Positions 482-51,067 are shown, counted from the first letter of the stretch. The stretch is 64,000 bases of DNA from an uncultured Clostridia bacterium (GCA_944381205.1 CALWKG010000001.1:66488-130487); one strand, 5' to 3'. A program made the numbers and translations. The notes: generated by a model not told the origin, from the sequence alone.

Positions 482-1663
482 ATGAAAGTTTTCGGAACAA
501 TTTCACGTGGGGTTAGGACTCCAATAATAAAAGAAGGCGATGATTTGGCAAAAATTGTGTGTGATAGTGTTTTAAATGCAGTAAAAAAAGAAAAAGTTGA
601 TTTAAATGATAGAGATGTAATTGCCATAACCGAGGCGGTTGTTGGTATCTCACAAGGAAACTATGCCACAATAGACCAAATTGCAAAAGACGTAAATAGT
701 AAATTTGGTGACGAAACTGTTGGGCTTGTATTCCCTATTTTAAGTAGAAATAGATTTTCGATGTTGCTAAAAGGCATTGCAAAAGGGGTAAAGAAGTTAA
801 TTATCCAACTATCTTACCCTAGCGACGAAGTTGGAAATTCTCTTGTGGATTTAGAAACTTTTTATGAATCTAACATTAATCCTTACAGCGACGTATTTAC
901 CGGTGACGAATTTAACGCAAAATTTAATTACCCTGTACACACATTTACAGGCATTAATTACATTGATTTGTTTAAAGAATATGGTGGAAAAAACACGGAA
1001 ATTATATTATCTAATGACCCAAAAACAATATTAAATTACACTAAAAATGTTATTTGTGCGGATATTCACACAAGAAATAGGACTCAAAAAATAATAAAAA
1101 ATGCCGGTGGTGAAAAAGTTTTAACCCTTTGCGATATTATGAATAAAAGTATTGATGGTAGTGGTTATAACTCTAAATATGGCTTACTTGGCTCTAACAA
1201 ATCTACCGAAGACAAAGTAAAATTATTTCCTGAAAACGGACAAGAACTGGTTGATAAAGTGCAAAAAATGATTTTTGAACAAACAGGAAAAAAGTTAGAG
1301 ATTATGGTTTATGGAGATGGGGCTTTTAAAGACCCGGTTGGTGGAATTTGGGAACTTGCAGACCCAATTGTTTCCCCTGCCTATACAAGCGGACTAGTTG
1401 GCACCCCTAACGAACTAAAATTAAAGTTTTTGTCGGATAATAAATTTAGAGATTTGCGTGGCGAAGAATTAATGCTTGCAATGAAGAATGAAATTAAAAA
1501 TAAAAGTAAAAATCTAAAAGGCAGTATGGAAACACAAGGCACTACTCCTAGAAGATATATTGACCTTTTGGGTTCACTTGCTGACCTTACAAGCGGGAGT
1601 GGCGATAAAGGTACACCAGTTGTTTTGATACAGAATTATTTTTCAAATTACGCAGAAGATTAA
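482..1663 (+). CDS. F420-0:gamma-glutamyl ligase (CofE)-like family protein, function unknown in Firmicutes
   Basis: The N-terminal pattern (GVRTPIIKEGDDLAKIV...AITEAVVGISQG) resembles the CofE-like ligase family. Good RBS and promoter. Confidence 0.5.
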   Translation: MKVFGTISRGVRTPIIKEGDDLAKIVCDSVLNAVKKEKVDLNDRDVIAITEAVVGISQGNYATIDQIAKDVNSKFGDETVGLVFPILSRNRFSMLLKGIAKGVKKLIIQLSYPSDEVGNSLVDLETFYESNINPYSDVFTGDEFNAKFNYPVHTFTGINYIDLFKEYGGKNTEIILSNDPKTILNYTKNVICADIHTRNRTQKIIKNAGGEKVLTLCDIMNKSIDGSGYNSKYGLLGSNKSTEDKVKLFPENGQELVDKVQKMIFEQTGKKLEIMVYGDGAFKDPVGGIWELADPIVSPAYTSGLVGTPNELKLKFLSDNKFRDLRGEELMLAMKNEIKNKSKNLKGSMETQGTTPRRYIDLLGSLADLTSGSGDKGTPVVLIQNYFSNYAED

Positions 1664-4990: not shown

Positions 4991-5073
4991 TGGTGCGGAC
5001 GAGAGGACTTGAACCCCCACGGTTTCCCACTAGATCCTAAGTCTAGCGCGTCTACCAATTCCGCCACATCCGC
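4991..5073 (-). tRNA. tRNA-Leu (anticodon TAG), long variable arm, encoded CCA
   Basis: Reverse complement folds as a cloverleaf. Acceptor gcggatg/cgtccgc, anticodon loop ctTAGga, T-loop GGTTCAAGTCC. Confidence 0.9.
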
Positions 5074-5081
5074 ATATTATT

Positions 5082-5157
5082 TGGTGATCCACCCGAGGTT
5101 CGAACTCGGGACCCCTTGATTAAAAGTCAAGTGCTCTACCGACTGAGCTAGTGAATC
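5082..5157 (-). tRNA. tRNA-Lys (anticodon TTT)
   Basis: Acceptor gattcac/gtggatc, anticodon loop ctTTTaa, T-arm cccgagTTCGAACctcggg, CCA encoded. Confidence 0.9.
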
Positions 5158-5164
5158 ATATTTA

Positions 5165-5240
5165 TGGCTGGGGTGGCAGGATTTGAACCTACGCAATGCA
5201 AGAGTCAAAGTCTTGTGCCTTACCGCTTGGCTACACCCCA
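5165..5240 (-). tRNA. tRNA-Gln (anticodon TTG)
   Basis: Acceptor tggggtg/cacccca, anticodon loop ctTTGac, T-loop GGTTCAAATCC, CCA encoded. Confidence 0.9.
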
Positions 5241-6514: not shown

Positions 6515-6590
6515 TGGCTGGGGTGGTAGGATTCGAACCTACGCAATGTTGGAGTCAGAGTCCAATGCCTTACCGCTTGGCGACACCCCA
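6515..6590 (-). tRNA. tRNA-Gln (anticodon CTG)
   Basis: Paralogous to the 5165-5240 tRNA. Anticodon loop ctCTGac, T-loop GGTTCGAATCC, CCA encoded. Confidence 0.9.
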
Positions 6591-6751: not shown

Positions 6752-6825
6752 GCGGGTGTAACTCAATGGTAGAGTTCCAGCCTTCCAAGCTGGCTACGAG
6801 GGTCCGATTCCCTTCACCCGCTCCA
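6752..6825 (+). tRNA. tRNA-Gly (anticodon TCC) with unusual T-loop
   Basis: Acceptor gcgggtg/cacccgc, anticodon loop ctTCCaa, CCA encoded. The T-loop reads TCCGATT rather than TTCGAnT. Confidence 0.8.
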
Positions 6826-6836
6826 ATATATTTTAT

Positions 6837-6913
6837 GTTTCAGTAGCTCAGTTGGATAGAGCACCGCCCTTCTAAGGCGGGTGTCGGGGGTTCGAATCCC
6901 TCCTGGAACACCA
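6837..6913 (+). tRNA. tRNA-Arg (anticodon TCT)
   Basis: Acceptor gtttcag/ctggaac, anticodon loop ctTCTaa, T-loop GGTTCGAATCC, CCA encoded. Confidence 0.9.
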
Positions 6914-6924
6914 TTTTTTTGTGT

Positions 6925-7002
6925 GGTGAATGTAGTTCAGTTGGCTAGAACGCCAGATTGTGGCTCTGGAGGTCGTGGGTTCGAGTCCCATCTTTCACCC
7001 CA
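6925..7002 (+). tRNA. tRNA-His (anticodon GTG) with extra 5' G(-1)
   Basis: Anticodon loop ttGTGgc, T-loop GGTTCGAGTCC, extra 5' G opposite the discriminator C, CCA encoded. Confidence 0.85.
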
Positions 7003-17571: not shown

Positions 17572-18489
17572 TCAATCTAATTTTAACCCACCGATAAACT
17601 CTCTTAATAAACTATTGTCTGGTATTAAATCTTCATTAAGAATTTGGCAATGCGAAAAAATGTCTAAATACTTTGAAATAACAGGGCTAATACTTTGATA
17701 CTGTTTAAACTTTGACTCTACTTCAAACTTAAACAATGATAACTCGTACGAAAAAACGGTATCAATTACAAAATTTGCGCTAGGTTTGTATGGTAAAATA
17801 TTTTTATCTTCTCCCACGCAAACTTCTTTCCACATCTCAATACTTTCAAGGTAAGGGACATCTCTATCTCGGGCATCTCTTATCATTCTTCTTAAAAGCC
17901 TAATTTCCCTAGACGACAACTTATCTTCCCCATTAATAAAAAACTTAGAGTCGCAATCTAAATAAATCTTATAAATTCTATCGTTGCTAAGCCCTTCGAC
18001 AATTTTAGGGTTATGTGCGTGGATACCTTCCATAATAATCACTTCGTTGCCATTGAGTTTACATTCTACCCATTCCGGCAAACGAGTATGCGTAGCAAAA
18101 TCAAATTGCGGGGTTTTTGTTTCGTTTTTTTCCAAAATTTCGCCAAGGCATTTTTTTATGCACTCTACATCAAGAGCCTGCAAACTTTCTATATCAGGTT
18201 CTCCATCTGGTCTAACGGGGATTTTATTTGCATCTATAAAAAAATCGTCCATATTTAAAACGTGAGAAGGTATGTTGTGTTGCCTTAATCTTTCCTGCAA
18301 TCTAAAACTTGTGGTGGTTTTACCAGCAGACGAAGGTCCTGAAATAAGTAGGATTTTTACGTTTAAATTTTCTATTTTTTGTGCCACTTCTTCTAATAAG
18401 TTTGCATAGTACTGCTCGGCAAGAGAAACAACTTGCTTAGGATTTTGCTGTATTTGTTCGTTAATTTGCTCTATGTTTATATTAATCAT
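17572..18489 (-). CDS. P-loop nucleoside kinase, uridine kinase/PRK family
   Basis: Walker A GPSSAGKTT and IIMEGIHA. Start moved to MININIEQ (AAGGA RBS), because the track start overlaps the upstream gene by 100 nt. Confidence 0.6.
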   Translation of the reverse strand: MININIEQINEQIQQNPKQVVSLAEQYYANLLEEVAQKIENLNVKILLISGPSSAGKTTTSFRLQERLRQHNIPSHVLNMDDFFIDANKIPVRPDGEPDIESLQALDVECIKKCLGEILEKNETKTPQFDFATHTRLPEWVECKLNGNEVIIMEGIHAHNPKIVEGLSNDRIYKIYLDCDSKFFINGEDKLSSREIRLLRRMIRDARDRDVPYLESIEMWKEVCVGEDKNILPYKPSANFVIDTVFSYELSLFKFEVESKFKQYQSISPVISKYLDIFSHCQILNEDLIPDNSLLREFIGGLKLD

Positions 18490-18502
18490 TTTATTTATCC
18501 TT

Positions 18503-19774
18503 TTAATAGTCTTTAAAGTATATTTTATAAGCAAAAGTTTGAACTTGCTCGAAATCTTGACTTTTGCAAGCCGACAAAAATTGTTTAATTTCGTCATCTT
18601 CAAAATCGTTTTCGCTAATGCCAGACTTTTTAATTACCTGACAAAAATCTTTTATGCAATCGTCGACACCTATTAAGTTCATTAAGACGAAATCGTCTTG
18701 CTTAAAGAAATTTTTAAAATAGTAAATCCATTTTTCTGTCGAAATCTCTTCAAGTATATTACCCGCCACCTCACGAGAAGAAGGCAAATACCCATTGCAA
18801 TTACCCAGATAACAGACTAGACTTGGGGTTATAACACTCCTTAAAAAATATCTTGGGTACGAATTTAACTCATTAAGTTTTATTAGTCCGTCTGTTTCGT
18901 CCTTTTGATTGTGGATACTATAATGGCAGGACAAAATATCCTGACAATTTTTAAGAATTGCCGTCACAACTGACAAGTCGGTAGTAAAATCAATTAACTT
19001 CACTTTACAAAAACCAGACATAAAGATTTTGTAAATAGCAGAATCTTCTGGCAATGTTTTTAAATAATAGGAGTAAAACTTTTTATCATTTAGACTTGTT
19101 TTATCCCACAAATCTTCTATTAGATTAATAAAATTTTGACTTAGGGTTTTTAATCTTTTATTATCGTTAGCAATCTCAGTTTTAATCATAGCAAAGATAA
19201 GCCTTAGTAAAATGTTTTTATGCTTGTTAATAGCCGACACGATATTTAGGTATTCTTCGCTAGATGGCAAGATATTAGTGGTTTGCAACAGGTCAATAAT
19301 GCTTTTTATCTTTGAAATTTCGTTGCTAAAATCTTTTTTTATAATTGATTCATACAAGTTTGAGATGTAGAATTTTGTACGTTCTTTATTGATATCTTCT
19401 GTTTCAATAAAAGAGTCTTTTTTGCCTTGCAAATATTCGATAATGTCTAAAATTATTAATTTTTCTTCCTTAGAAATTAAATCTAAGTCACACGCGAGCC
19501 TTAAAACAAAGACGTCAAAAAAGTTTGAAATAAATGTTCTATCTATCCAATGAATTAAATTAACGACTAACTCGTCACCTAACGAAAAAACCGTGTCTTT
19601 TAATTTTTTTACAGCCTTATTAAAGACATATTCTATAACATAATTATACATTTTTGCGTTAAATGACGAATAAATAAAGTCCTTATCATCTTCCGTAAGG
19701 TCGGATATGGTGGGGTCAGATATAACTTCTTTAAAAGCAGAATCGGAAATGCTTTTTTGTTTATGACTAATCAT
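18503..19774 (-). CDS. Hypothetical 423-aa all-helical protein, partner of the DAC-like gene
   Basis: No motif recognised. No TM segments. Start codon overlaps the stop of the upstream gene by 1 nt. Confidence 0.6.
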   Translation of the reverse strand: MISHKQKSISDSAFKEVISDPTISDLTEDDKDFIYSSFNAKMYNYVIEYVFNKAVKKLKDTVFSLGDELVVNLIHWIDRTFISNFFDVFVLRLACDLDLISKEEKLIILDIIEYLQGKKDSFIETEDINKERTKFYISNLYESIIKKDFSNEISKIKSIIDLLQTTNILPSSEEYLNIVSAINKHKNILLRLIFAMIKTEIANDNKRLKTLSQNFINLIEDLWDKTSLNDKKFYSYYLKTLPEDSAIYKIFMSGFCKVKLIDFTTDLSVVTAILKNCQDILSCHYSIHNQKDETDGLIKLNELNSYPRYFLRSVITPSLVCYLGNCNGYLPSSREVAGNILEEISTEKWIYYFKNFFKQDDFVLMNLIGVDDCIKDFCQVIKKSGISENDFEDDEIKQFLSACKSQDFEQVQTFAYKIYFKDY

Positions 19775-20814
19775 TATTTTTTCACCTCCTCGTAAAAAAT
19801 TTCCCCGTCTTGTGAGTGAAAATACACGCCTACGATTTTTTTGATATTTGAATTTATTACGGCATAGGCAGCGCGCTTTCTAGCCCCGCCGATGATGTTC
19901 TTTTTGGTATATTTTTCCGCCTTAATAAAGACGTTATATGCCCTGATTCGACCAATATTATCAACAATAGTTATTCCGTCATAATTTAACATAGCGATAA
20001 AAAGTTGGGCAATATTGGTGAGTTTTGCTTCCGAATAACTGCGTGTCATAAGAAATGTTTTAGAAAATTCTATTGGTTCATTTAGCCAAATACCATCGCT
20101 AAAAAATCCTTTTTGGTCCTTAAAATCTTTATCTACTACAACGCAAATTGCCCCGTGAATATCGTTTATGGCACGTTTTAGTATATTCTCGTACAAAATT
20201 TTTATTTCGTTTAATTTGTTTTTAGTGGTTTTTAATTTGGAAAAACTTGCGTTGACAAATCTTTTTATTACGTTTTCCCTATTTAAAAAGTTAGAGTCAT
20301 TTATCGAAAAATTTACAATTATGTTTCCGCCCCTAATACCACGCAAGCCTATTGCATAAGATGACATTGTATCTATATGTAGTAAAGAAAACTTTTCGTT
20401 TTGGGCTAAGGCTTCGTTTTCAAATATAAGGCTGTATAATGGTTTTTCCTTAATACTATTAAAGACCTTACAAATTCCATAATTTATTGCGCCGTCTTTG
20501 ATTTCTATATAAGTTGTCCAGTCATACGAGCAAAATATCAAAAGAGATTTAAGTCTAGAATTAAAATACTGCTCGTCCTCATCTGAAAACAAATGTAATT
20601 TAAAGAAATTAGGTATATTTTTGCTTAAAGTATCAATGTTACTTGTAAACAAAAGTCTTGGCTTAATGTTGTGGCCTTCTTCTTCATAACTGCAAAACTT
20701 ATAAAAACTATTTATAAAAAGCGAAATAAGATTTTCGGGCATAGTAGGATATTCTTTTGCTATAAGTCTTAAAACAGTTTCCTTTGCTTCTGTAAAATAC
20801 AAGTTATCCGCCAT
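19774..20814 (-). CDS. DisA_N/diadenylate-cyclase-like domain protein with an unknown ~200-aa N-terminal domain
   Basis: The C-terminal region aligns by eye to DAC motifs: HGAICVVVD, YDGITIVD..GRIRAYNVFI, GGARKRAAYAV, VGVYFHSQDGEI. Confidence 0.6.
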   Translation of the reverse strand: MADNLYFTEAKETVLRLIAKEYPTMPENLISLFINSFYKFCSYEEEGHNIKPRLLFTSNIDTLSKNIPNFFKLHLFSDEDEQYFNSRLKSLLIFCSYDWTTYIEIKDGAINYGICKVFNSIKEKPLYSLIFENEALAQNEKFSLLHIDTMSSYAIGLRGIRGGNIIVNFSINDSNFLNRENVIKRFVNASFSKLKTTKNKLNEIKILYENILKRAINDIHGAICVVVDKDFKDQKGFFSDGIWLNEPIEFSKTFLMTRSYSEAKLTNIAQLFIAMLNYDGITIVDNIGRIRAYNVFIKAEKYTKKNIIGGARKRAAYAVINSNIKKIVGVYFHSQDGEIFYEEVKK

Positions 20815-21635
20815 TAATTATTCCCCCCTTTATTATGTCCCCCAAAAAATTTTTCTGTAAAATGTAGCAAAACACTAAGTGGCATAAATCTCATAATAAA
20901 ATATAAAAATTTGTATTTAAAACCTATTATTTTGTGTGGTGGCAATTTGCGTTTAAGGCTGAGTTTATAGATTTTTTTTGCCACAAAATCAGCACTCATA
21001 CGATTATTTTCGTTAGCATCTATTTTATTAGTTGCGTTTAAAATTTTGTCATTGTACCTGCTATTTGTATTGAAATTTTTTACCCTGTTTTTTGTAAAAT
21101 TGGTTTTTGTATCCCCCGGGCAGACGTTACATATTTGAATTTTTAAGTCTTTACACTCCATACGTGCAGAGTAAAAAAGCAAATTCAATGCCGATTTGCT
21201 AGCACAATAAAAAGCCCTAAAAGGCAATGGAAAAAAAGCACAAACAGATGAAATGTTTATAATTTTTGAGCCACTTTCCATAAGCGGTAGTGCATATTTA
21301 TAGCAGTTAAACGCGCCAAAAAAATTAACGTCAAAAATTTGTTTTGCCGAAGATAAGTCGCATAACTCCACCGCGCCAGACAGCCCAAAGCCCGCGTTAT
21401 TAATTAATAAATTGATTTTACCAAATTTCTGTTTAATTTGATAAAAGGTATCCTTTACTTGTTGCTCGTCAGAAACATCGCATTGGTAAAAATTGCTTTG
21501 ATTTTGCCTATTATGCCTAGCAATGTTTACAACGATAAAGCCATTGTTGGTATAGAAATTACTAAGACAAAGACCAATACCGCTAGAAGCCCCGGTTATC
21601 ACTACGACATTACTTTCGTTTGCAAACTTACTCAT
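20814..21635 (-). CDS. Short-chain dehydrogenase/reductase (SDR) family oxidoreductase with hydrophobic C-terminal extension
   Basis: TGASSGIG, NNAG, and YCASK (YxxxK) motifs. Confidence 0.85.
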   Translation of the reverse strand: MSKFANESNVVVITGASSGIGLCLSNFYTNNGFIVVNIARHNRQNQSNFYQCDVSDEQQVKDTFYQIKQKFGKINLLINNAGFGLSGAVELCDLSSAKQIFDVNFFGAFNCYKYALPLMESGSKIINISSVCAFFPLPFRAFYCASKSALNLLFYSARMECKDLKIQICNVCPGDTKTNFTKNRVKNFNTNSRYNDKILNATNKIDANENNRMSADFVAKKIYKLSLKRKLPPHKIIGFKYKFLYFIMRFMPLSVLLHFTEKFFGGHNKGGNN

Positions 21636-21741: not shown

Positions 21742-22521
21742 TTATGCAAAAATATTTGATATGTTTTTATAATTAAGGGCGATTTTTAACAATGCAGATT
21801 TAATTTTTGAGTTGTAATACAAAGAGTTTTGTTCAAAATAAATACAATCATTAACGGTTTCATAAACTTCATTAAAACTGTTATTAAATTGTTCTAAAAC
21901 CAATTTACTTAAATCTAAATTATCCAAATTTTTTTTAAAATTTAAGGCATTAGAACAAATAAATGCACAGGCGCTATCTACTTCTGTCCTTAAAATTTTA
22001 GCACTGTCGTACTCTAAAATTTTTTCGTATAACAACATAAAACTTTCCCTAAAAAAATAAATAGCATCTACTATTTGCGTTTTACTATTGCCGTGATAAT
22101 CTATTAAAATTTCTTTGGCGCTTAAATTAACAATTTTTGAATTGTAATTGAGATTTTTTAAATTTTCCTGAATCTCTTTTGCTTCAATTAATGTTGGAAA
22201 AATTGAAGCAATTAGATAAAATTCCCCGCTTTGATAAATCTCACCCATTCCGCCCTTTGATTTTACGGCATCTGTCATAGAGTTTGCTTCTTCTAAATTA
22301 TCATAATCGGCAACAGACACCGCATAAACTTGAAAGGAAGGAACATCAATCTTATCTACAAAGAATAGTCCCTTTTTTTTAGTTATTACACTAGACATCA
22401 TATCGCAAATATTAAAGATAACTACACAAATAAGTAAAAAAATAATAAAAATATATATAAAATTTCGTTTTTTCCCCGATTTTTTATTGTTTTTTGTTGT
22501 TTTTTTTAAAAAAAATGGCAC
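21742..22521 (-). CDS. Membrane-anchored SPOR-domain protein
   Basis: N-terminal basic stretch plus TM helix. SPOR-like segment FQVYAVSVADYDNLEEANSMTDAVKSKGG...YLIASIFPTLIEAKEI. Confidence 0.55.
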   Translation of the reverse strand: MPFFLKKTTKNNKKSGKKRNFIYIFIIFLLICVVIFNICDMMSSVITKKKGLFFVDKIDVPSFQVYAVSVADYDNLEEANSMTDAVKSKGGMGEIYQSGEFYLIASIFPTLIEAKEIQENLKNLNYNSKIVNLSAKEILIDYHGNSKTQIVDAIYFFRESFMLLYEKILEYDSAKILRTEVDSACAFICSNALNFKKNLDNLDLSKLVLEQFNNSFNEVYETVNDCIYFEQNSLYYNSKIKSALLKIALNYKNISNIFA

Positions 22522-30098: not shown

Positions 30099-30377
30099 TA
30101 GGAAGTGCTAGGCGGGGAGCCAGTGGTGCCCTGTTACCTACAATCCACTATAAGTAGGGCTGAATGTCTTGCTTAGGGGCAACTCTTGTTAAGCAAGCGG
30201 TATATGCTTTAACGATGAAGTTAAGGTCTTGTGCAACTTTTACCCACGAACCATGTCAGGACCTGACGGTAGCAGCATTAAGTGGACCTAAAAGTGTGCC
30301 ACAAGGAAACTTTAACCGAGTTAAACTTATATCATACTACTTGACAGATTGTTTCGAAGCAGAATGCACTTCCTACC
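30099..30377 (+). ncRNA. ffs: Signal recognition particle RNA, long Bacillus-type with Alu domain
   Basis: 5' GUGCUAGGCGGGGAG..GGUGCCCUGU..CAAUCC Alu-domain signature. Domain IV GUCAGGACCUGACGGUAGCAGC. 5'/3' closing helix taggaagtgc/gcacttccta. Terminator follows. Confidence 0.9.
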
Positions 30378-39871: not shown

Positions 39872-42800
39872 CTACTTTCCAAAAACCCACCAATCAAATT
39901 TGTTTCGTTTTTTTCGTTTTATAATAGAAAGAATTATCATTACTGTCACAATTACCCCGACTACTGCAAGGACTATATACAAAATATAAATATTGCTACC
40001 CACCGTCACATTAATAGTAGTATCTTTATCTATACCGCTAAGGCTATGGTCAAAGTTAAGATATTCAAACACATTTAGGTCAATGTTTTCGTACAAAACA
40101 TTGGTATTAACCGTTTCACCATAATTTACGTCAACTACATAGGAATTTCCGTTTAAGACAAAGGTAACTTTATAGATGTTTGGGGTATAAATTGCTTCTA
40201 TATTTGTATCGTCTGATGCACTAACAATTTCGTTTTGCGACCAATAAGGTTGTATGTTGTCATAATTAGGTTTTTCAGGTATTTGTGGAAATTTGTCACT
40301 GGAAAGGGCTTCTCCGTGTAGGACAGATATTGTTTTTATAACTTCGCCATCTACAACAAAATTAATGTTGTAGCGATTTAACTCTATATTATCTAAAACA
40401 ACATCAAATTCGCCCCTAACACTCTTTATAACAAAATTGACCCCTGTGGAGTTTTCAACTGAAACTCTATCTAGCAACTCCGATTCTCCCGTACTTTTAT
40501 AAACCACTGTTGCCGTGAGATTGTCATAGGATTTATTGTACTTTTGCTCTAACTGTACAGAAAATATGTAATCTTTGCCAAACTCTATATTATTAGAACC
40601 AACCAAAGTGTATTTTTCACTTTCGCTAGGCAGTACAACGTCATAAACTTTTATGTCAAACTTTGCGTACAAGACGACATCGCCCACCCTACCTTTAAGG
40701 GTTTGCAATTTTTCACCATCGAAATTTGCATTATCGTAAAAACCGTCAAAATTATAACCCGTCCTAACAGGTGATTTAAGGCTAAAATTTGACTCAATAT
40801 TATATTCAGTTTCTACGTCTTGTAAAAACTCACCGCCATTTAACTCGTATGTGATTTTATAATTAACTGGGGCAAAAATCATTTCAAGAGTAGTGTTTTT
40901 GGTTATTATTACACTAGACAATTTGTCTATCATATATTCGTCATTGACCTGAAAGCCTTCAAATTTATAGCCTAAGATTTCGGAACTTATGCCTTCTGGC
41001 AAGGTGTTTATAGTAGAAAAGTGTTCAACTTCTAGGGTTTTACTAACTCCGTCAAATCCAATAAATTTTACCAAATATGTACGATAAACAATAAAATATT
41101 TTCCGCTAATAATGGTTGCGTTGTAATTTGGATTGCTGTAAGTTGCGGTAATTTTATAGCCACTTTCATCTTTTAAGGTATTATTATTGATTTCCTGTCC
41201 GTTACTATCAAGGCAAGAAAACTGCAAATTTAAGTTGTCCCCGCTGACATAATTGCCGGATACTGTGTATTTAAAATCCCTATTTATCTCGCCATAATAA
41301 GATGTTTTGTCTAATATTGTGATTGTTATGTCGGTTGGTAAAATTTCAAAGTATGTTTTTTCAAGCACAAGGTTATAATTTTTTTCTAATGACTTACCTA
41401 ACCTTAAAGTGCCAAGAGTAATTTCATAACTGCCTACGTTTTCGCCTTTTATTCTACTCAACTTACCCGTAAAATCAAGTGTGTCATTAAAGTAGAGTTT
41501 GGAATATTTAAAAGTAAAATTTGGGTCACTGTTACTATTTTTATCATAATGTTTGCTTGTTTGATTAGGGGTAATAACTAAATCTCTTTTTAAAATAGTA
41601 TACGTGTAATTGTTTTGATTATCAAAAATCAAATTATAGTTAGTCGCCTTAAAGTTTTCACCATCTTGCAAGGCTATATTGCCGACATTTATAAGATATG
41701 TCCCGACATATTCAATATTACCTTCCTTACCTAATTTGCCAGAGAAAGACGGGATTTCGCCCACCAAATTACCCGAATAATCAAACAAAATATTGTCGCT
41801 ATCGCCGTAAGTTTTGCTTTGATTTCCATTTGGTGAAATAGTTAAATCTATTGGCAGAATTCTTAAAGTAGCCGACATTACCTTATCATAATAATTGTGC
41901 TTTTTAAATAAGACGTCAATGATATATTCGCCAGCATCAACATATTCAAGAGAGTCAAAATATTCATCACTATTGTGTCTTGCAAACAAAATTTCAATGT
42001 CGTCATCATTTGCTTCGACAACTACACTATGTGGCTTAGCATCATATTTTACATACATATTATTTTTGACGTTAACCCAGTCAATTTCTCCAAGAGAGAT
42101 GTTAAAATAGACATCTTCGCCCATTTGCAAGGTATAGTTTTTTGCGTTAAAGTCTTCAAATGAAACAAGAGATAAATCTCCAAGTGTTATTAAATAATCG
42201 CCCGCATCAAACACGTCACCAATAGATAATCCACCTAAAAATTTAGGTGTTTCTAGCGCGTTTTGATAACTAAAAGTTATATTGCCCATAGGCTCGTCAT
42301 ACACTTTGGTTTGGTTTTTATCGGGATAGATATATATTGTTCTAGGCAAAATATTAAACTTAATATTGCTATTTAATGTTACGACATAATTCCTTGCCAA
42401 AAAATCGCCATTATCATAGATAACAGGGCTACCATTTAACGCAAACTCGTAACTGCCGACATTTTCGCCAAGTTGCCTTGTAATTAGCGCTTTTACAATA
42501 GGCTCTTCACCTGCCACGGCATTAACTATTTGGTATTCGAACTCGCTATTGCTATCGCCATAAATTTTTTGGTTATTAATGACTTCTATTTTGAGTTCTC
42601 TACACGCAATAGTAAATAATTTGCTGTCATTAAAAACAATGTCATAGTTGCTACTTTTAAACAGTCCATAATCCAGTAACTGCAAATTTCCCCTAGTGAT
42701 TTTATACGTTCCGACATTTTCCCCTAACTCACGGGAAAGCCTTCCATAACGTTGGGGCTCTTCGTTTTCGACCAAACCATCTAGAAAATAAGTTAAAATC

Positions 42801-44749
42801 GGGTCGTTATCGCCATAAAATTTAGATAAATTATTTGGGATAATGGTTAATTTTTTAGGCAAAATTGTAATGTTTACCTTCTCTATCTTGTCCTGATAGC
42901 CATAAGCAGATAATTTTACATAAATTTCGTAAGGTTCATTATTTGTTAAAACGTCTTTTACGTTATATTCACTTTCGCTAAAATAATTTTTTCCGTCAAA
43001 ACTATAACTTACACTATAATTAACGTCGTCATAAACCGCCACACTTGGTTTTACAATTTTGCCGTTATATTCACAGGTCACTCCTGTGATTTCCGCGTCA
43101 AACTGCGCAATGCTCAAACTTTCGACAATAATTGGCAAAACACATTCCGCACCCGACATCTCGTATTTGCTCCAACTAGAATTAGGATAAACTGTGTAAA
43201 AACTAGGCACGGGGATTGCCTGATTAGAATTATTATCAATAAATAACAATGCCCCGCCACCGAGAACTTCCATCACGACGACAAAATTTTGACCGGTGAC
43301 CAAAAGGTTTTCGTCAAGTTCAATAGTATAATAGCCCGTTTGCGCACTACTAAAAATATAATCACCTGTGAGTTTGTTTTTTATAGGCACTTTATCATTA
43401 AAATTATCCAAAAGAGCCTGCTCGTAATTTAAAATGTCACTTTCCTGCAAATTGATTAAATACACCTTAAAATTTGTAGGGGTGTTATTGCGTTTTATTC
43501 CGCTTAAATCTTCGCCTACCGAAGTAACTGTTGGAACTTTTATGCTACTAATAATTTGACTACCGCCATAAGTTTTAAAAAAGTTTGCCGTAAAGATACT
43601 TGTACCCTGTGTTGCACTTATAAATTGTGTGGAAAAAGCATTTAAACCACTTAATGTCACAAATTGGTCTTTTTGCTCGGATAATTCCGTACTATTGTAA
43701 ACAAAGTCATTATCCTGTTTAAGACCAACTCTTTTAAACCCCGCGACATCGTCTTCGATATTGGCATCTTCATACATTACATAAAAGTATCCGCCTTTGC
43801 CAAAAGTTTCGCCGTAAGAATTTTGAACAATATAAGCACCCTTTTTATCGCCGTGGGTAAAAGTGTCGTCCCAGCCAACAATAGTAACCATGTGATTTAC
43901 CTGATTGTTGCCCGTATAGGAATACACATAGGAATTGGCAAGATATGTCCTATCAAAATAAATTGAAGCCGTGACCGCGCCATAATTTTTAATGTGATAT
44001 TTTATGCTTTGTCTTAAATCTTCAATTTGGGAAATTTGTTCTTCATCTGACAGAGAATTATCCTTTTCTATTTCATATCTTGACGGGAAAAACTCTGCTT
44101 CCATAACGGAAAACTCGGATATGTTTCTTTGGTTATTTTGAAGATATGTAGCATACGAATTTGCAAGCATTTCGTTGCTGTCCCACCTTAGACTACTGTT
44201 ATTACCATAGGCTTCGTCTGAATTTTCATAAACTGGTCCCGCACCGCTTGCCAAATATTCGTAAGCGAGTTCAAACCCACCAGCGCCAAGTCTGTCTTTT
44301 CCACGAGATAGAATATAGACCGAATATGCTAAGTCCACTTCCGAAAAATTAAGTTGAGTGCTGAGTCCTAGTTTGTAGATTGTACTTTCTAGCGAAGTAT
44401 TGACCGCAAAAGCCCAACACAAATCAGTCATAAACTGATTGCCTACGTTGGATTTGTACCCAGCACTAACCCCTTTATAGTCGGCAAAGTCATACAACGA
44501 ATACTTTGTGCCAAGGTCTACATTGTAGTTGGTTCCTTCTACTAAACTATTTGTTGATACACTATTTTCACTACTTTGCAAAGTAGATAAATTGTCGTTA
44601 GATTTTTTAAGAGGCTTTTCCTGAGAATTATAAAAAATTGTAGGAGAGTACGCAAAAGCATTAACAGAACAAATCGAGCAAACAAAAAAGAGTGCTAGTA
44701 AAGCACAGCATAGTATAAAAAAATTGTTTAATCTTTTTTTTGTATCCAT
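39872..44749 (-). CDS. Giant surface protein: signal peptide + papain-like (C1) cysteine protease + MBG-type repeats + Listeria-Bacteroides-type repeats + C-terminal TM anchor
   Basis: Signal peptide. Catalytic Cys in DLCWAFA, His in VNHMVTIVGWDD, and QNSYG. Repeated ...YGD...G.L.R..GENVG.Y.I..G.L....NY...F modules. GYKFEGF/GYNFDGFYD repeats. C-terminal hydrophobic helix plus KRKKRNK. Confidence 0.85.
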   Translation of the reverse strand: MDTKKRLNNFFILCCALLALFFVCSICSVNAFAYSPTIFYNSQEKPLKKSNDNLSTLQSSENSVSTNSLVEGTNYNVDLGTKYSLYDFADYKGVSAGYKSNVGNQFMTDLCWAFAVNTSLESTIYKLGLSTQLNFSEVDLAYSVYILSRGKDRLGAGGFELAYEYLASGAGPVYENSDEAYGNNSSLRWDSNEMLANSYATYLQNNQRNISEFSVMEAEFFPSRYEIEKDNSLSDEEQISQIEDLRQSIKYHIKNYGAVTASIYFDRTYLANSYVYSYTGNNQVNHMVTIVGWDDTFTHGDKKGAYIVQNSYGETFGKGGYFYVMYEDANIEDDVAGFKRVGLKQDNDFVYNSTELSEQKDQFVTLSGLNAFSTQFISATQGTSIFTANFFKTYGGSQIISSIKVPTVTSVGEDLSGIKRNNTPTNFKVYLINLQESDILNYEQALLDNFNDKVPIKNKLTGDYIFSSAQTGYYTIELDENLLVTGQNFVVVMEVLGGGALLFIDNNSNQAIPVPSFYTVYPNSSWSKYEMSGAECVLPIIVESLSIAQFDAEITGVTCEYNGKIVKPSVAVYDDVNYSVSYSFDGKNYFSESEYNVKDVLTNNEPYEIYVKLSAYGYQDKIEKVNITILPKKLTIIPNNLSKFYGDNDPILTYFLDGLVENEEPQRYGRLSRELGENVGTYKITRGNLQLLDYGLFKSSNYDIVFNDSKLFTIACRELKIEVINNQKIYGDSNSEFEYQIVNAVAGEEPIVKALITRQLGENVGSYEFALNGSPVIYDNGDFLARNYVVTLNSNIKFNILPRTIYIYPDKNQTKVYDEPMGNITFSYQNALETPKFLGGLSIGDVFDAGDYLITLGDLSLVSFEDFNAKNYTLQMGEDVYFNISLGEIDWVNVKNNMYVKYDAKPHSVVVEANDDDIEILFARHNSDEYFDSLEYVDAGEYIIDVLFKKHNYYDKVMSATLRILPIDLTISPNGNQSKTYGDSDNILFDYSGNLVGEIPSFSGKLGKEGNIEYVGTYLINVGNIALQDGENFKATNYNLIFDNQNNYTYTILKRDLVITPNQTSKHYDKNSNSDPNFTFKYSKLYFNDTLDFTGKLSRIKGENVGSYEITLGTLRLGKSLEKNYNLVLEKTYFEILPTDITITILDKTSYYGEINRDFKYTVSGNYVSGDNLNLQFSCLDSNGQEINNNTLKDESGYKITATYSNPNYNATIISGKYFIVYRTYLVKFIGFDGVSKTLEVEHFSTINTLPEGISSEILGYKFEGFQVNDEYMIDKLSSVIITKNTTLEMIFAPVNYKITYELNGGEFLQDVETEYNIESNFSLKSPVRTGYNFDGFYDNANFDGEKLQTLKGRVGDVVLYAKFDIKVYDVVLPSESEKYTLVGSNNIEFGKDYIFSVQLEQKYNKSYDNLTATVVYKSTGESELLDRVSVENSTGVNFVIKSVRGEFDVVLDNIELNRYNINFVVDGEVIKTISVLHGEALSSDKFPQIPEKPNYDNIQPYWSQNEIVSASDDTNIEAIYTPNIYKVTFVLNGNSYVVDVNYGETVNTNVLYENIDLNVFEYLNFDHSLSGIDKDTTINVTVGSNIYILYIVLAVVGVIVTVMIILSIIKRKKRNKFDWWVFGK
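41085..42862 (-). repeat. In-frame tandem array of ~75-aa MBG-like modules within the surface-protein gene (approximate bounds)
   Basis: Recurrent KxYGDxxP...G.LxRxxGENVG(T/S)Y.I......NY motifs in the translated sequence. Confidence 0.6.
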
Positions 44750-45319: not shown

Positions 45320-45913
45320 TTAGTTCATTTGCTTATATTTTAACAGTCTTACCTGGCTTGCTCTTTCGTTTTCTTCCAACTTAAAAGAGATATAACTTAT
45401 ATTTTTTTGTAAATTTGGTATTAAATTTTCATTTAAGGCATTAACCCTTCGTTTTGTAGATTCTATCTCCCTGCCGAGTTTAAAAATTTCGTCTTCTAGC
45501 CCTGCGAGTTTTAATAATTTTGGCATAAAATTTCGCAAATTTTGACCTAAAATATCAAGTAATGGTTGGTTTAAACTTATTTCTTTACTATCATTTTTAT
45601 TGTTTATACAAAAATCCTTTAAGCATATATTAAATAGATTTTTAGTTTTTACGTCAACATACAACGTTTTATTAAACTCTTTTTCTATATCGCTAGAAGA
45701 AACTCCTTGCCTTGAAAAAATATATTGCTTTATCAAGTCAAAAAATTCCTGCTCGACTTCCTTTCTAAGTCTTTTACAGGTTTTAATGCGTGAAGAAAAA
45801 ATTTTAACCATTTCGTCATTTTTGTCTTTTAGCATTTTATAGCCTTTTTTTGCAATGGCGAGTTTTCTAACTAAGTTTTTTAGTTCGCTTCTGGTAGGAT
45901 TATTGGTAAACAT
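45320..45913 (-). CDS. atpD: V-type ATPase subunit D
   Basis: NPTRSELKNL...AKKGYKMLKDK N-terminus typical of subunit D. Last gene of the operon. Confidence 0.85.
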   Translation of the reverse strand: MFTNNPTRSELKNLVRKLAIAKKGYKMLKDKNDEMVKIFSSRIKTCKRLRKEVEQEFFDLIKQYIFSRQGVSSSDIEKEFNKTLYVDVKTKNLFNICLKDFCINNKNDSKEISLNQPLLDILGQNLRNFMPKLLKLAGLEDEIFKLGREIESTKRRVNALNENLIPNLQKNISYISFKLEENERASQVRLLKYKQMN

Positions 45914-45939
45914 TATGTATTACCCCTTTTAAAAGTTTG

Positions 45940-49054: not shown

Positions 49055-49096
49055 TTTTTACCCTCTTTTTACACAAATATTAAGCCAAAACACAAT

Positions 49097-49405
49097 TTAA
49101 CTAAAATTATGCCCCATCATTATTTTGCTTGCTTGCTCGTTTAATCTTTGCATTGGATAACTGTCAAAACTATTTGTTGGCAAGATGCAAATAGTAGAAT
49201 ATTCTTTATTAATTTCGTCAATTAAATCACTTGCAAATCTGGCAAAATTGCTAAAAATAAAAATTAGCGAATATTGCTTTGATAATTCTAATAAAGTTTT
49301 TCTTGTGTCTTCTTCGCCGTAGACTTCGTACCCATCAACTCCCGCGAGTTTAAACATATCTAGCATATATTTTTCGCCTATAACTGCCACTTTATTTTTT
49401 TCCAA
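49097..49405 (-). CDS. atpF: V-type ATPase subunit F
   Basis: About 100 aa with KVAVIGEKYMLDMFKLAGV pattern. Operon position before A. Confidence 0.75.
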   Translation of the reverse strand: MEKNKVAVIGEKYMLDMFKLAGVDGYEVYGEEDTRKTLLELSKQYSLIFIFSNFARFASDLIDEINKEYSTICILPTNSFDSYPMQRLNEQASKIMMGHNFS

Positions 49406-50455: not shown

Positions 50456-50488
50456 TTTTACCCCCTTTTTACTAAAAATATTATAAAT

Positions 50489-51052: not shown

Positions 51053-51067
51053 AATTTTATCCCTTTT

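What the first reader, a model, noticed from the sequence alone, without database searches (positions are those of the whole stretch)
18503..21635. Translationally coupled SDR / sensor-DAC-like / 423-aa orphan cassette: candidate nucleotide-signalling module
The 346-aa ORF (19774-20814) has a C-terminal ~140 aa that aligns by eye with the diadenylate cyclase (DisA_N/DAC) fold. The matches are HGAICVVVDKD (cf. GALIVI), NYDGITIVDNIGRIRAYNVFI (cf. DGA[IV]I...I.AA..LP), GGARKRAAYAV (cf. GTRHRAA) and VGVYFHSQDGEI (cf. VSEETG.IS). Both nucleotide-binding signatures are altered: DGA becomes DGI and RHR becomes RKR. So the product may not be c-di-AMP, or the domain may only bind nucleotide. It has none of the known accessory architectures: no CdaA-type TM helices, no DisA HhH domain, and it is much larger than CdaS. 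Instead it carries a ~200-aa N-terminal domain that I cannot place. Its start overlaps the stop of an SDR oxidoreductase (TAATG at 20814). Its stop overlaps the start of a 423-aa all-helical protein with no recognisable motif (junction at 19774). A uridine-kinase-family P-loop protein follows after 13 nt. DAC-like domains fused to novel N-terminal sensor domains have, as far as I recall, been predicted computationally in NTP-dependent conflict systems. The partner here would be an uncharacterised effector or receptor.
Basis: partly seen in the sequence, partly recalled or inferred. Interest (0 to 1): 0.72.

Follow-up and report, generated by a model that had tools for sequence, protein, structure and literature searches.

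The report
Split diadenylate-cyclase-like enzyme with helical partner
Two overlapping genes encode a very divergent diadenylate-cyclase-type signalling enzyme and a helical partner protein, a pair that standard searches miss, that sits in anti-phage islands, plasmids and prophages in other bacteria, and that has become a strongly conserved core gene pair in this gut Clostridia lineage.

Summary
The ORFs, both TAATG overlaps, the 13-nt spacer and the motifs are all real. The C-terminal 150 aa of the 346-aa protein has a diadenylate cyclase (DAC) fold: the 49 best PDB fold matches are all DisA/CdaA/CdaM/DacA, and a profile-profile comparison with DisA gives P=4.5e-5 with the motifs in register. 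Pfam finds nothing in this protein. Catalytic-type residues (DG, GxRxR, S-x-D-G, a stacking Phe) stay near-invariant down to 20% identity.

The conserved unit is two genes, not the four-gene cassette. The 423-aa helical partner follows or overlaps the DAC-like gene in 46 loci. These include a Vibrio plasmid, prophage-like contigs and an Agrobacterium plasmid, where the pair sits beside a CD-NTase and patatin CBASS. In three proteins the partner is fused to the cyclase. The SDR and the kinase-like gene are lineage-specific neighbours.

The closest known kind is CdaG/DS-2C (CBASS-DAC, described 2023-2026), but Pfam's DAC model matches only below threshold and no DACNG or DACNH match appeared. 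In this lineage the pair sits in core chromosome, is syntenic across 35 species, and the cyclase is more conserved than SepF. Sister lineages keep the cyclase alone.

I could not settle whether it serves as the housekeeping c-di-AMP synthase or as an immune sensor. I rate it a new variant of a known kind.

The parts
19774..20814 (-). 346-aa DAC-like protein (the catalytic-type subunit of the module)
   Evidence: ORF. There are 702 close homologues and 594 representative clusters at 50% identity, and none carries a name. The AF2 model has pLDDT 85.8.
20230..20814 (-). N-terminal domain (residues 1-195), alpha/beta, unplaced. Conserved Y43-x-E45-E46, P52, K89, W99 and [YF]112-G113.
   Evidence: High-confidence model. 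It has no Pfam or NCBIfam hit. No PDB fold match other than DAC scored below E=0.1. There is no profile similarity to the C-domain or to the DisA DAC domain.
19777..20229 (-). C-terminal DAC-fold domain (residues 196-346)
   Evidence: Foldseek top 49 hits are all DisA, CdaA, CdaM or DacA. hhalign against a DisA DAC profile gives P=4.5e-5. Sub-threshold Pfam DAC hits occur in 16 of 76 members.
19969..19980 (-). DGIT (residues 279-282), the counterpart of the DAC 'DGA' motif
   Evidence: D279 and G280 are invariant in 76 of 76 sequences. Position 281 is Ile in 67 of 76 and Ala in 3. The motif aligns to DisA MDGA. Coordinates verified.
19873..19890 (-). GGARKR (residues 309-314), the counterpart of the DAC 'GTRHR' motif
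   Evidence: G310 and R312 are in 76 of 76 sequences and R314 in 73 of 76. Position 313 is K, R, S or T and never His. The motif aligns to DisA G(T/M)RHR.
19804..19815 (-). SQDG (residues 334-337), the probable counterpart of the DAC 'SEE(T)G' metal and phosphate motif
   Evidence: S334 is in 74 of 76 sequences, D336 in 72 and G337 in 75. The correspondence to SEETG is my inference from motif order, not an aligned result.
19927..19938 (-). YNVF (residues 293-296). F296 is a candidate base-stacking aromatic, cf. Tyr187 of L. monocytogenes CdaA.
   Evidence: Y293 is Y or F in 76 of 76 sequences and F296 is in 70 of 76. The equivalence to CdaA Tyr187 is inference from spacing and from my own knowledge of CdaA structures.
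18503..19774 (-). 423-aa all-helical partner (putative regulatory or sensor subunit)
   Evidence: Its start overlaps the cyclase stop (TAATG). The AF2 model has pLDDT 88.2 and 22 helices. No PDB or BFVD fold neighbour scored below E=0.1. Homologous proteins lie downstream of DAC-like genes in distant lineages (hhalign probability 98.4%, E=6.6e-15; HMM E values from 1e-77 to 1e-131).
18560..19009 (-). Partner residues ~256-405, the conserved C-terminal half (H284...E293, P307, G324, G328, W349). This half is fused to the cyclase in some relatives.
   Evidence: The partner HMM matches P0275 residues 430-586 (E=8.6e-13) and P0256 residues 344-496 (E=1.5e-13), in both cases C-terminal to the DAC domain. 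The P0301 tail carries the AHxxIDNFYKEP motif.
20814..21635 (-). SDR oxidoreductase. It is translationally coupled here but is not part of the conserved module.
   Evidence: Pfam adh_short, E=2e-42. It lies directly upstream only in loci L004-L028. It is 1.8 kb away behind a 182-aa gene and a GT4 gene in L001 and L029-L035, and is absent from distant pairs.
17572..18489 (-). Uridine-kinase/PRK-family P-loop protein (305 aa from the ATG at 18489). A lineage-specific downstream neighbour.
   Evidence: Pfam PRK, E=6.5e-13. The 13-nt spacer was verified. A LOG-like (Lysine_decarbox) gene takes its place in L001 and L029-L035.

Best explanation
The 346-aa and 423-aa genes form a two-protein nucleotide second-messenger unit.

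The 346-aa protein is a highly divergent but probably active diadenylate-cyclase-fold enzyme. It has an unplaced N-terminal alpha/beta domain and a C-terminal DAC domain that keeps the Asp-Gly, Gly-x-Arg-x-Arg and Ser-x-Asp-Gly active-site positions. The 423-aa helical protein is its cognate regulatory or sensor subunit. It binds the cyclase and gates formation of the active head-to-head DAC dimer. In that role it is the split equivalent of the C-terminal helix bundle of CdaG/DS-2C, the DAC component of CBASS-DAC anti-phage systems. The product is c-di-AMP or a related cyclic dinucleotide.

The module is old and mobile, found in defence islands, plasmids and prophage-like elements. In the ancestor of this gut Christensenellales-type lineage it became fixed in the core chromosome, and the cyclase came under strong purifying selection. 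There it most likely feeds the cell's own nucleotide-signalling network rather than a dedicated suicide effector.

Shown: the DAC fold and motif conservation, the pair co-occurrence and fusions, the contexts, the synteny and the relative conservation. Inferred: catalytic activity, the product, physical binding, the direction of regulation, and homology (as opposed to analogy) to CdaG.
For: DAC fold and conserved motifs:
- The Foldseek top 49 PDB hits are all DAC enzymes.
- hhalign against a DisA profile gives P=4.5e-5 with motifs in register.
- DisA is the top PDB sequence hit of the family profile.
- Pfam DAC is sub-threshold in 16 of 76 members and is the only recurrent family.
- D279, G280, G310 and R312 are invariant. 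R314, S334, D336, G337, H220, G221 and F296 are at 90% or more, down to 20% identity.

The pair is one unit:
- TAATG overlap in the window.
- The partner abuts or overlaps the DAC-like gene in all 35 loci with 52% identity or more, and in distant lineages L084-86, L088-89, L092-94, L095, L101 and L106-108. The totals are 46 paired, 3 fused and 42 solo.
- Rosetta-stone fusions exist: P0275, P0256 and P0301.

Regulator rather than effector:
- Only the partner's C-half is fused in cis.
- It has no TM segment and no known fold or family.
- It has few invariant residues.
- Solo lineages keep an intact cyclase.

Link to CdaG-type systems:
- On Agrobacterium pAtCG920 the pair sits beside a CD-NTase (E=4e-50 to CdnE structures) and a patatin phospholipase. 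This is the gene set of CBASS-DAC/Liu-DS2 (PMC13069673).
- CdaG is described as DACNG + DACNH + DAC + a C-terminal helix bundle, about 575 aa (PMC13640721). The fused relatives here are 521-608 aa.
- DS-2C proteins make c-di-AMP in vitro (bioRxiv 10.64898/2026.08.10.743927).

Fixation in this lineage:
- The window is core chromosome (tig, clpPX, sepF, groESL, ileS, rpoD, dnaG).
- Synteny holds across 35 species genomes.
- The cyclase is more conserved than SepF in every syntenic locus.
- The gut clade has short branches, nested among long-branched mobile copies.
Against: - No enzymatic evidence exists for this family.
- The Ala of DGA is Ile, and the His of RHR is never His, so activity or product may differ, or the domain may only bind nucleotide.
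- The window protein itself has no Pfam DAC hit even at E<=1. The family profile against PDB sequences is not significant on its own (E=0.073).
- No DACNG or DACNH match was found in any of 76 members, and I could not obtain a CdaG sequence for direct comparison. Kinship to CdaG therefore rests on architecture and one shared context.
- Physical interaction of the two proteins was not modelled.
- Whether these genomes also hold cdaA or disA is unknown. I saw at most 64 kb of this genome and about 13 kb of each relative.
- The NJ tree uses the C-domain only, is midpoint-rooted and has no support values.
Confidence: 0.6

Rival explanations
1. It is simply this lineage's housekeeping, possibly sole, c-di-AMP synthase. 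It would be a non-orthologous replacement for CdaA, with the 423-aa protein acting as its CdaR/GlmM-like regulator and with no immune role here.
For: - Core-genome location.
- Synteny across 35 species, and 214 species genomes with a relative.
- The cyclase is more conserved than SepF.
- Solo sister lineages keep the cyclase in assorted housekeeping contexts (pheST, addAB, cls, nrdR). In one of them it sits next to a DHH/DHHA1 phosphoesterase, the family that includes c-di-AMP and pApA phosphodiesterases.
- No canonical DGA...RHR protein occurs in 953 kb of window plus loci.
- No effector-type gene lies in the operon.
Against: - Absence of cdaA or disA from these genomes was not shown; only a small fraction of each genome was visible.
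- The same module in Vibrio and Agrobacterium plasmids, prophage-like contigs and defence islands cannot be housekeeping there.
- The DGI and R-K-R changes leave the product open.
Confidence: 0.35
2. It is an active two-gene anti-phage system in this genome. The DAC-like protein senses infection or immune evasion and makes a signal, and the 423-aa protein is the signal receptor and toxic effector, by analogy with PanS-PanE or CBASS.
For: - Relatives sit beside R-M, Thoeris, GmrSD, PLD-helicases, YobI-type and SMC-like ATPases and CBASS, and on plasmids and predicted prophages.
- The partner evolves much faster than the cyclase (92% against 66% in L006, 63% against 30% in L001), as expected for a component under conflict.
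- DAC domains are now proven defence enzymes (bioRxiv 10.64898/2026.08.10.743927; PMC13069673; PMC13640721).
Against: - The partner has no TM segment, nuclease, TIR, patatin or other known effector signature.
- Only its C-half is fused to the cyclase.
- 42 loci keep the cyclase alone.
- There are no PADLOC hits.
- In this lineage the locus is fixed, syntenic and in a core operon with sepF and lspA-type genes, and no other defence gene was seen among the 34 window ORFs I annotated with Pfam.
Confidence: 0.2
3. The DAC-like domain is a catalytically dead pseudo-enzyme. It only binds a nucleotide such as c-di-AMP or ATP and acts as a receptor or sensor.
For: - Both textbook signatures are altered: DGA to DGI, and RHR to R-[KRST]-R.
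- Pfam's DAC model fails on the window protein.
- CdaG itself contains a degenerate DAC-like domain, DACNH (PMC13640721).
Against: The residues that do the chemistry or hold the phosphates in DACs are the ones that stay invariant across about 20% identity: Asp and Gly of DGA, both Arg of RHR, and the Ser and acidic pair. That pattern is typical of an active site. Characterised defence DACs likewise conserve only 'select residues' of DGA and RHR and are still active (bioRxiv 10.64898/2026.08.10.743927).
Confidence: 0.15
4. The DAC resemblance is a chance or convergent similarity, and the proteins are unrelated lineage-specific orphans.
For: There is no significant hit for the single sequence in Pfam, NCBIfam or PDB sequences.
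Against: - 49 of the top 49 Foldseek hits are DAC, followed by a sharp drop.
- The profile-profile P value is 4.5e-5 with three motifs in register.
- Sub-threshold DAC hits recur in 16 of 76 members.
- The family spans several phyla.
Confidence: 0.02

Closest known systems
CdaG / DS-2C, the DAC component of CBASS-DAC (Liu-DS2). Family named by Galperin 2023. Shown to be required for defence (PMC13069673) and to make 3'3'-c-di-AMP (bioRxiv 10.64898/2026.08.10.743927).
   Same: - Same order of parts: N-terminal uncharacterised domain(s), a DAC domain, then a C-terminal helical module. Fused relatives here are 521-608 aa against about 550-575 aa for CdaG.
- Only 'select' DGA and RHR residues are conserved.
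- Defence-island association.
- One relative (Agrobacterium pAtCG920) sits next to a CD-NTase and a patatin phospholipase, the CBASS-DAC gene set.
   Different: - Usually split into two genes (about 345 aa and about 425-445 aa).
- The helical component is much larger than a 'helix bundle'.
- Among 76 members, Pfam DAC matched only below threshold and no DACNG or DACNH match was returned. That those two models are in this Pfam copy is my assumption.
- The N-terminal region is about 195 aa, not about 325 aa.
- In this window there is no CBASS and no defence neighbour.
- A direct sequence or structure comparison with a CdaG protein could not be run.
DisA (DNA integrity scanning protein)
   Same: It gives the best structural and sequence matches to the C-domain (9y4s and 3c1y). 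A DAC domain followed by a helical module is also DisA's plan.
   Different: - In DisA the DAC domain is N-terminal; here it is C-terminal.
- There is no DisA-linker or HhH domain.
- There is no radA neighbour.
- DGA and RHR are intact in DisA and altered here.
CdaA with its regulators CdaR and GlmM
   Same: A DAC enzyme co-transcribed with a protein that controls its activity. It has a core-genome location and strong conservation in Firmicutes.
   Different: - No N-terminal TM helices.
- No YbbR-type CdaR and no glmM in the operon.
- The partner is an unrelated all-alpha protein.
- The Pfam DAC model fails.
Panoptoo / PanDA (PanS minimal DAC + PanE S2TM-beta effector)
   Same: A two-gene DAC-based module found in defence islands and mobile elements. 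The altered DAC active site can change the product (cUA).
   Different: - PanS is about 150 aa and is recognised as DisA_N.
- Its partner is a beta-barrel membrane effector.
- Here the cyclase has an extra 195-aa domain, and the partner is soluble and helical.
CdaZ / DacZ (DacY) class
   Same: A soluble DAC with an N-terminal alpha/beta domain of unknown role and a C-terminal DAC domain.
   Different: The N-domain of that class is like the pyruvate-kinase C-terminal domain (PMC10249747). No pyruvate kinase structure appeared among the fold matches to this model, and there is no Pfam DAC hit.

Membership tests
DAC / DisA_N superfamily (PF02457) | DAC alpha/beta fold | tested here: met
   Foldseek against the PDB: ranks 1-49 are all DisA, CdaA, CdaM or DacA, with probability about 1.0. 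Rank 50 has probability 0.03.
DAC / DisA_N superfamily (PF02457) | Score above the Pfam gathering threshold (27 bits) | tested here: not met
   The window protein has no hit at E<=1. The best family member scores 22.8 bits (E=7e-5), and 16 of 76 members are sub-threshold.
DAC / DisA_N superfamily (PF02457) | Profile-level sequence homology to bona fide DACs | tested here: met
   hhalign of the C-domain (76 sequences) against a profile of 5 DisA DAC domains gives P=4.5e-5 and probability 69% over 97 columns, with motifs in register.
DAC / DisA_N superfamily (PF02457) | DGA motif | tested here: inconclusive
   Asp and Gly are invariant in 76 of 76 sequences. Ala is replaced by Ile in 67 of 76 and retained in only 3.
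DAC / DisA_N superfamily (PF02457) | RHR motif | tested here: inconclusive
   Both Arg are conserved (76 of 76 and 73 of 76). The central His is never present; the position holds K in 32 sequences, R in 15, S in 14 and T in 11.
DAC / DisA_N superfamily (PF02457) | Synthesis of c-di-AMP from ATP | not testable with these tools
   This needs biochemistry.
CdaA (DacA) | Three N-terminal TM helices and a cdaA-cdaR-glmM operon | tested here: not met
   The maximum 19-residue hydropathy is 1.11. The neighbours are SDR, the partner and a udk-like gene.
DisA | N-terminal DAC, helical linker and C-terminal HhH, with radA adjacent | tested here: not met
   The DAC domain is C-terminal. There are no HhH or DisA-linker hits and no radA nearby.
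CdaS | About 200 aa, with a two-helix N-terminal autoinhibitory domain (own knowledge) | tested here: not met
   The protein is 346 aa with a 195-aa alpha/beta N-domain.
CdaZ / DacZ | N-terminal domain like the pyruvate-kinase C-terminal domain | tested here: not met
   No pyruvate kinase chain appears among the Foldseek matches with E<0.1. This is an indirect test.
CdaG / DS-2C | DACNG and DACNH domains N-terminal to the DAC domain | tested here: not met
   No DACNG or DACNH Pfam hit at E<=0.1 in any of 76 members or in the fused forms. That these models are in this Pfam copy is my assumption. The secondary-structure order of residues about 27-168 resembles a DAC fold, but hhalign finds no similarity.
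CdaG / DS-2C | C-terminal helix bundle on the same polypeptide, about 550-575 aa in total | tested here: inconclusive
   This is not so in the window, where there are two genes. Three relatives (521, 568 and 608 aa) carry the partner's C-half fused after the DAC domain. Homology to the CdaG bundle could not be tested because no CdaG sequence was obtainable.
CdaG / DS-2C | Encoded with a CD-NTase and a CBASS effector | tested here: not met
   None was found in the window. It is met in one relative, Agrobacterium pAtCG920.
Panoptoo / PanDA | Minimal ~150-aa DAC next to an S2TM-beta (Cap15-like) effector | tested here: not met
   The protein has 346 aa and two domains. The partner is all-helical and has no TM segment.
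Known anti-phage systems (PADLOC-DB v2) | Match to any system protein model | tested here: not met
   No hits for the window proteins. No recurrent hit across 76 cyclase and 15 partner homologues.

The most novel reading that the evidence does not exclude
An immune-type, CdaG-like split diadenylate cyclase was captured by the ancestor of a large uncultured gut Christensenellales radiation. It became that lineage's principal, possibly only and essential, cyclic-dinucleotide synthase. This would be exaptation running from immunity to housekeeping, the reverse of the direction recently described for PanS. Because of the DG-Ile and R-x-R active site, the product may not be canonical 3'3'-c-di-AMP. 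Pfam-based censuses would score this whole lineage as 'DAC-negative'.
Probability: 0.25. Interest if true: 0.8.

Novelty: new variant of a known kind. Interest (0 to 1): 0.62.

Why it matters
**Missed by censuses.** DAC enzymes are counted and classified almost entirely through PF02457. The 2026 gut census, for example, used hmmsearch at E<0.01 (PMC12901056). This family is invisible to that filter: at least 594 clusters at 50% identity, and 214 species genomes for the gut clade alone. c-di-AMP-type signalling capacity is therefore probably under-counted in gut Clostridia.

**A handle on a new field.** Defence-associated DACs were only described in 2026, and the CdaG clade's extra domains are called an open frontier (PMC13640721). 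A naturally split version, with separate cyclase and helical subunits, natural fusions and natural partner-less forms, offers a way to dissect what the helical module does.

**An evolutionary case.** The contrast between mobile copies in defence islands and a fixed copy more conserved than SepF is a testable example of a signalling module moving between immunity and core physiology.

Tried and rejected
- **Single-sequence and narrow-profile searches.** Pfam, NCBIfam, PADLOC and PDB sequences gave nothing for either protein. Only fold search, a broad profile and family-wide scans showed the DAC link.
- **Internal duplication (N-domain as a degenerate DAC).** The secondary-structure order is suggestive, but hhalign of N against C and of N against DisA found nothing. 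Left as an open idea.
- **Partner identity.** The Pfam scan of 31 members gave no recurrent family. The profile against PDB sequences gave only thymidylate kinase at E=0.045 and BUB1, which I judged noise. Foldseek against PDB and BFVD gave only generic ARM/HEAT-type solenoids at E>=0.15 and TM about 0.2. I looked for a HEPN-type RxxxxH motif by eye and found none.
- **Partner census.** The broad-profile partner search was throttled by the word index and added only 3 proteins. The partner census therefore rests on neighbourhoods.
- **Canonical cdaA or disA in the same genomes.** The motif scan of 953 kb found none, but that covers only a small fraction of each genome. The gut DAC paper's supplement is not held.
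- **c-di-AMP riboswitch.** The Rfam scan of the window found no ydaO-type riboswitch. I did not scan the loci, since a hit would not discriminate between the hypotheses.
- **Getting a CdaG sequence.** Galperin 2023 is not held. The Liu et al. supplement is not held. A tblastn of a DisA DAC segment against plasmids returned only DisA orthologues.
- **GenBank phage genomes.** No homologue of the window protein.
- **SDR as part of the system.** Rejected on neighbourhood variation.

Full report
**1.

The minus strand carries three ORFs: a 273-aa SDR (20814-21635), a 346-aa ORF (19774-20814) and a 423-aa ORF (18503-19774).
- Both junctions are TAATG stop/start overlaps preceded by Shine-Dalgarno-like purine runs.
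- A PRK/uridine-kinase-family P-loop ORF starts 13 nt after the third stop.
- No terminator-like site lies on this strand between 23200 and 15000, so co-transcription is plausible.
- The window as a whole is ordinary low-GC (33%) Clostridia core chromosome. It holds tig, clpP, clpX, engB, rluD, lspA, sepF, the cassette, a SPOR-like gene, groES/EL, ileS, SRP RNA, rpsI, truA, PFOR, a V-type ATPase operon, rpoD and dnaG.

**2. The 346-aa protein has a real but very divergent DAC domain**

Single-sequence searches are blank: Pfam at E<=1, NCBIfam, PADLOC and PDB sequences. The protein nevertheless has 702 close homologues, all 'hypothetical' and without any Pfam domain. An exhaustive HMM search found 594 representative clusters at 50% identity, mostly 340-360 aa and full length.

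Four results support the DAC assignment.
- An AF2 model built on 33 homologues is confident (pLDDT 85.8, pTM 0.80). In a Foldseek search of the PDB, ranks 1-49 are exclusively diadenylate cyclases (M. tuberculosis and T. maritima DisA; CdaA from several species; CdaM; S. aureus DacA), with E from 9e-5 to 7e-3 and probability about 1.0. Rank 50 falls to probability 0.03.
- A 76-sequence family profile puts DisA first among 177,635 PDB sequences. The score is not significant (E=0.073), but HG, DG and GxRxR are in register.
- hhalign of the family's C-domain against a profile of five bona fide DisA DAC domains gives P=4.5e-5 over 97 columns, with the same register.
- Sixteen of 76 members give sub-threshold Pfam DAC hits (best E=7e-5, 22.8 bits against a 27-bit cut-off). 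Every other Pfam family hits at most one member.

**3. The active-site-type positions are the ones that stay fixed**

Conservation holds down to about 20% identity.
- D279 and G280: 76 of 76 sequences.
- G310 and R312: 76 of 76. R314: 73 of 76.
- S334: 74. D336: 72. G337: 75.
- H220: 72. G221: 76. F296: 70.
- The Ala of DGA is Ile in 67 of 76 sequences.
- The His of RHR is never His. That position holds K, R, S or T.

This looks like a conserved but remodelled catalytic pocket rather than a decayed one. It is also what was reported for defence DACs that proved active, one of which makes 3'3'-cUA instead of c-di-AMP (bioRxiv 10.64898/2026.08.10.743927). Activity and product here are still inference.

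**4. The N-terminal 195 residues**

They form a well-predicted alpha/beta domain with its own invariant positions: Y43, E45, E46, P52, K89, W99 and G113.
- It matches nothing in Pfam or NCBIfam.
- Nothing but DAC appears in the fold search below E=0.1.
- Its helix and strand order resembles a DAC fold, but profile comparison with the C-domain or with DisA is negative.

**5. The conserved unit is the cyclase plus the 423-aa protein**

In 80 species-representative genomes, all of them gut or rumen Clostridia and Christensenellales MAGs (taxonomy), the partner abuts or overlaps the cyclase in every locus with 52% identity or more (35 loci).
- SDR is directly upstream only in the nearest clade.
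- In the next clade a GT4 glycosyltransferase is upstream and a LOG-like gene replaces the kinase-like gene downstream.

Distant family members at 21-32% identity were sampled from metagenomes, a 5.7-Mb chromosome, two plasmids and three IMG/VR contigs. In all of them a homologous 429-445-aa gene overlaps or follows the cyclase:
- hhalign probability 98.4%, E=6.6e-15;
- HMM E values from 1e-77 to 1e-131.

Three proteins of 521, 568 and 608 aa carry the partner's C-terminal half fused after the DAC domain. That is Rosetta-stone evidence that the two products act together.

Counts over all loci held are 46 paired, 3 fused, 42 solo and 4 undetermined.

**6. The partner**

The model is confident and all-helical (22 helices, pLDDT 88.2, pTM 0.88).
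- It has no TM segment.
- No Pfam family recurs across 31 members, and there is no PADLOC match.
- No PDB or viral fold neighbour is better than generic solenoids at E>=0.15.
- Only a few positions survive across the broad family, all in the C-half: H284, E293, P307, G324, G328 and W349.
- It diverges much faster than the cyclase: 92% against 66% in L006, and 63% against 30% in L001.

Three things point to a regulatory or sensor subunit rather than a toxic effector: the cis-fusions of only its C-half, the lack of any effector signature, and the survival of an intact cyclase in lineages that lost it.

**7. Context elsewhere points to conflict systems**

| Source | Neighbours of the pair or fusion |
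|---|---|
| Vibrio sp. dhg mobilizable plasmid | HTH regulator, then cyclase, partner and a 204-aa multi-TM protein, next to a type II R-M system and an IS3 |
| Agrobacterium tumefaciens conjugative plasmid pAtCG920 | Divergent from a CD-NTase (E=4e-50 to CdnE structures) and a patatin phospholipase |
| Fused forms | GmrSD, a PLD-helicase and an SMC-like ATPase; Thoeris ThsA/ThsB, a transposase and an integrase; HNH, an SLFN-like helicase, MazG-like, NUDIX-MTase and AbiEii |
| Another pair (L084) | An AAA_15/SMC_N ATPase and a YobI-type ATPase |
| Three predicted viral contigs | The pair downstream of a DnaB-like helicase and an ImmR/Xre-like regulator |

**8. Relation to what is known**

Galperin's 2023 census split DACs into 22 families on the basis of recognisable DAC domains (cited in PMC12901056; the paper itself is not held).

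Two defence-associated classes were characterised in 2026.
- PanS is a minimal DAC of about 150 aa with an S2TM-beta effector (Panoptoo/PanDA).
- CdaG/DS-2C is about 550-575 aa, built of DACNG, DACNH, DAC and a C-terminal helix bundle. [quoted passage not shown] The DAC catalytic residues are required for defence, and the protein makes 3'3'-c-di-AMP (PMC13069673; bioRxiv 10.64898/2026.08.10.743927; PMC13640721).

The family studied here shares several features with CdaG: the order of parts, the total length when fused, the defence-island habit and, in Agrobacterium, the same CBASS partners.

It fails the formal tests for CdaG membership that I could run. No DACNG or DACNH hit was found, Pfam DAC is below threshold, the protein is normally split, and the N-region is shorter. 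I could not obtain a CdaG sequence for a direct comparison. I therefore file it as a CdaG-like, split variant of the DAC kind and not as a member of CdaG.

**9. What is different in this genome**

The gut Clostridia copies form one short-branched clade nested among long-branched mobile copies. Inside that clade the window's paired lineage and L038 sit among several partner-less lineages (NJ tree, C-domain only, no support values).
- In the paired lineage the locus is syntenic from the SPOR-like gene to sepF across 35 species.
- The cyclase is the most conserved gene of the block, ahead of SepF.
- Partner-less relatives lie among unrelated housekeeping genes: pheST, addAB, Ku/LigD, cls, nrdR and an ABC-F gene. 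In one lineage the gene sits directly upstream of a DHH/DHHA1 phosphoesterase.
- No CBASS, TM effector or other recognised defence gene turned up among the 34 window ORFs I annotated with Pfam.

This pattern fits fixation and domestication of an originally mobile module. The open question is whether it now serves as the lineage's housekeeping c-di-AMP-type synthase, possibly replacing CdaA. I could not resolve it, because only 64 kb of this genome and about 13 kb of each relative could be read. Those 953 kb hold no canonical DGA...RHR protein.

**10. Verdict**

| Claim | Probability |
|---|---|
| DAC-fold homology | about 0.95 |
| The two genes form a functional pair | about 0.9 |
| Active cyclic-dinucleotide synthase | about 0.6 |
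| Partner is a regulator or sensor | about 0.55 |
| Housekeeping role in this lineage | about 0.35-0.45 |
| Live anti-phage system in this lineage | about 0.2 |

Novelty: a new variant of a known kind. Interest: moderately high. The family is large, it is invisible to standard DAC searches, and it bears directly on a question raised in the 2026 literature.

Noticed in passing
L002/L003 7360-8388 (JGI 903-kb contig Ga0451654_000001; Logan SRR35183602): In one partner-less lineage the gene right after the DAC-like gene is a 342-aa DHH/DHHA1 phosphoesterase (Pfam E=6e-17 and 2e-13). That family includes the c-di-AMP and pApA phosphodiesterases. The precomputed annotation had it as '-'.
   Followed up: partly
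L095 3225-3839 (Vibrio sp. dhg plasmid NZ_CP028945.1): A 204-aa protein with several hydrophobic segments overlaps the partner's stop, making a three-gene operon behind an HTH regulator. It could be a membrane effector. No homologue was found in the other loci.
   Followed up: partly
L101 6704-11290 (Agrobacterium tumefaciens pAtCG920, NZ_CP116698.1): A CdnE-type CD-NTase and a patatin phospholipase are divergently adjacent to the DAC-like gene and its partner. A pre-toxin TG domain protein and a 1176-aa ankyrin-repeat protein lie just downstream.
   Followed up: partly
L001 8318-8929 and 11807-12388; also L029-L035: In the 62-64%-identity clade the gene after the partner is a LOG/'Lysine_decarbox'-family protein with a weak SLOG hit, where the window has the kinase-like gene. 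In both clades, then, a nucleotide-metabolism gene follows the pair. An MBL-fold hydrolase with a weak Anti-Pycsar Apyc1 hit lies further on.
   Followed up: no
L039 and L050, the ORF downstream of the DAC-like gene (452 and 459 aa): Two partner-less loci share a conserved downstream protein that looks beta-rich and is rich in Thr, Asn and Tyr. It has no assignment.
   Followed up: no
L055/L058, 200-aa ORF overlapping the start of the DAC-like gene: By eye, an HD-domain-like protein (HxxxxH...GLLHD) overlaps the start of a 388-409-aa DAC-like gene by 8 nt. This is another possible phosphohydrolase link. It was not tested with a profile.
   Followed up: no
window 39872-44749 (-): A 1625-aa protein with a papain-family Peptidase_C1 domain, MBG_2 repeats and Listeria-Bacteroides repeats, probably a large surface protease or adhesin.
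   Followed up: no
window 482-1663 (+): A 393-aa protein matching F420-0:gamma-glutamyl ligase (CofE-like, E=5e-53) over an unusually long span. This is unexpected in a gut Clostridia genome.
   Followed up: no
window 45320-53385 (-): A V/A-type ATPase operon (subunits D, B, A, C/AC39-like and I).
   Followed up: no
window 4994-5240, 6518-6590 and 6752-6999; 30103-30371: Seven tRNA genes in two clusters on both strands, and a large (Bacillus-type) SRP RNA.
   Followed up: no
window 21742-22521 (-): A 259-aa protein with one N-terminal hydrophobic segment and a weak SPOR hit. It is conserved upstream of the cassette throughout the syntenic clade.
   Followed up: no
window 17572-18603 (-): The mechanical ORF for the kinase-like gene starts at a TTG inside the partner gene. 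The likely true start is the ATG at 18489 (305 aa), about 100 aa longer than typical uridine kinases.
   Followed up: partly
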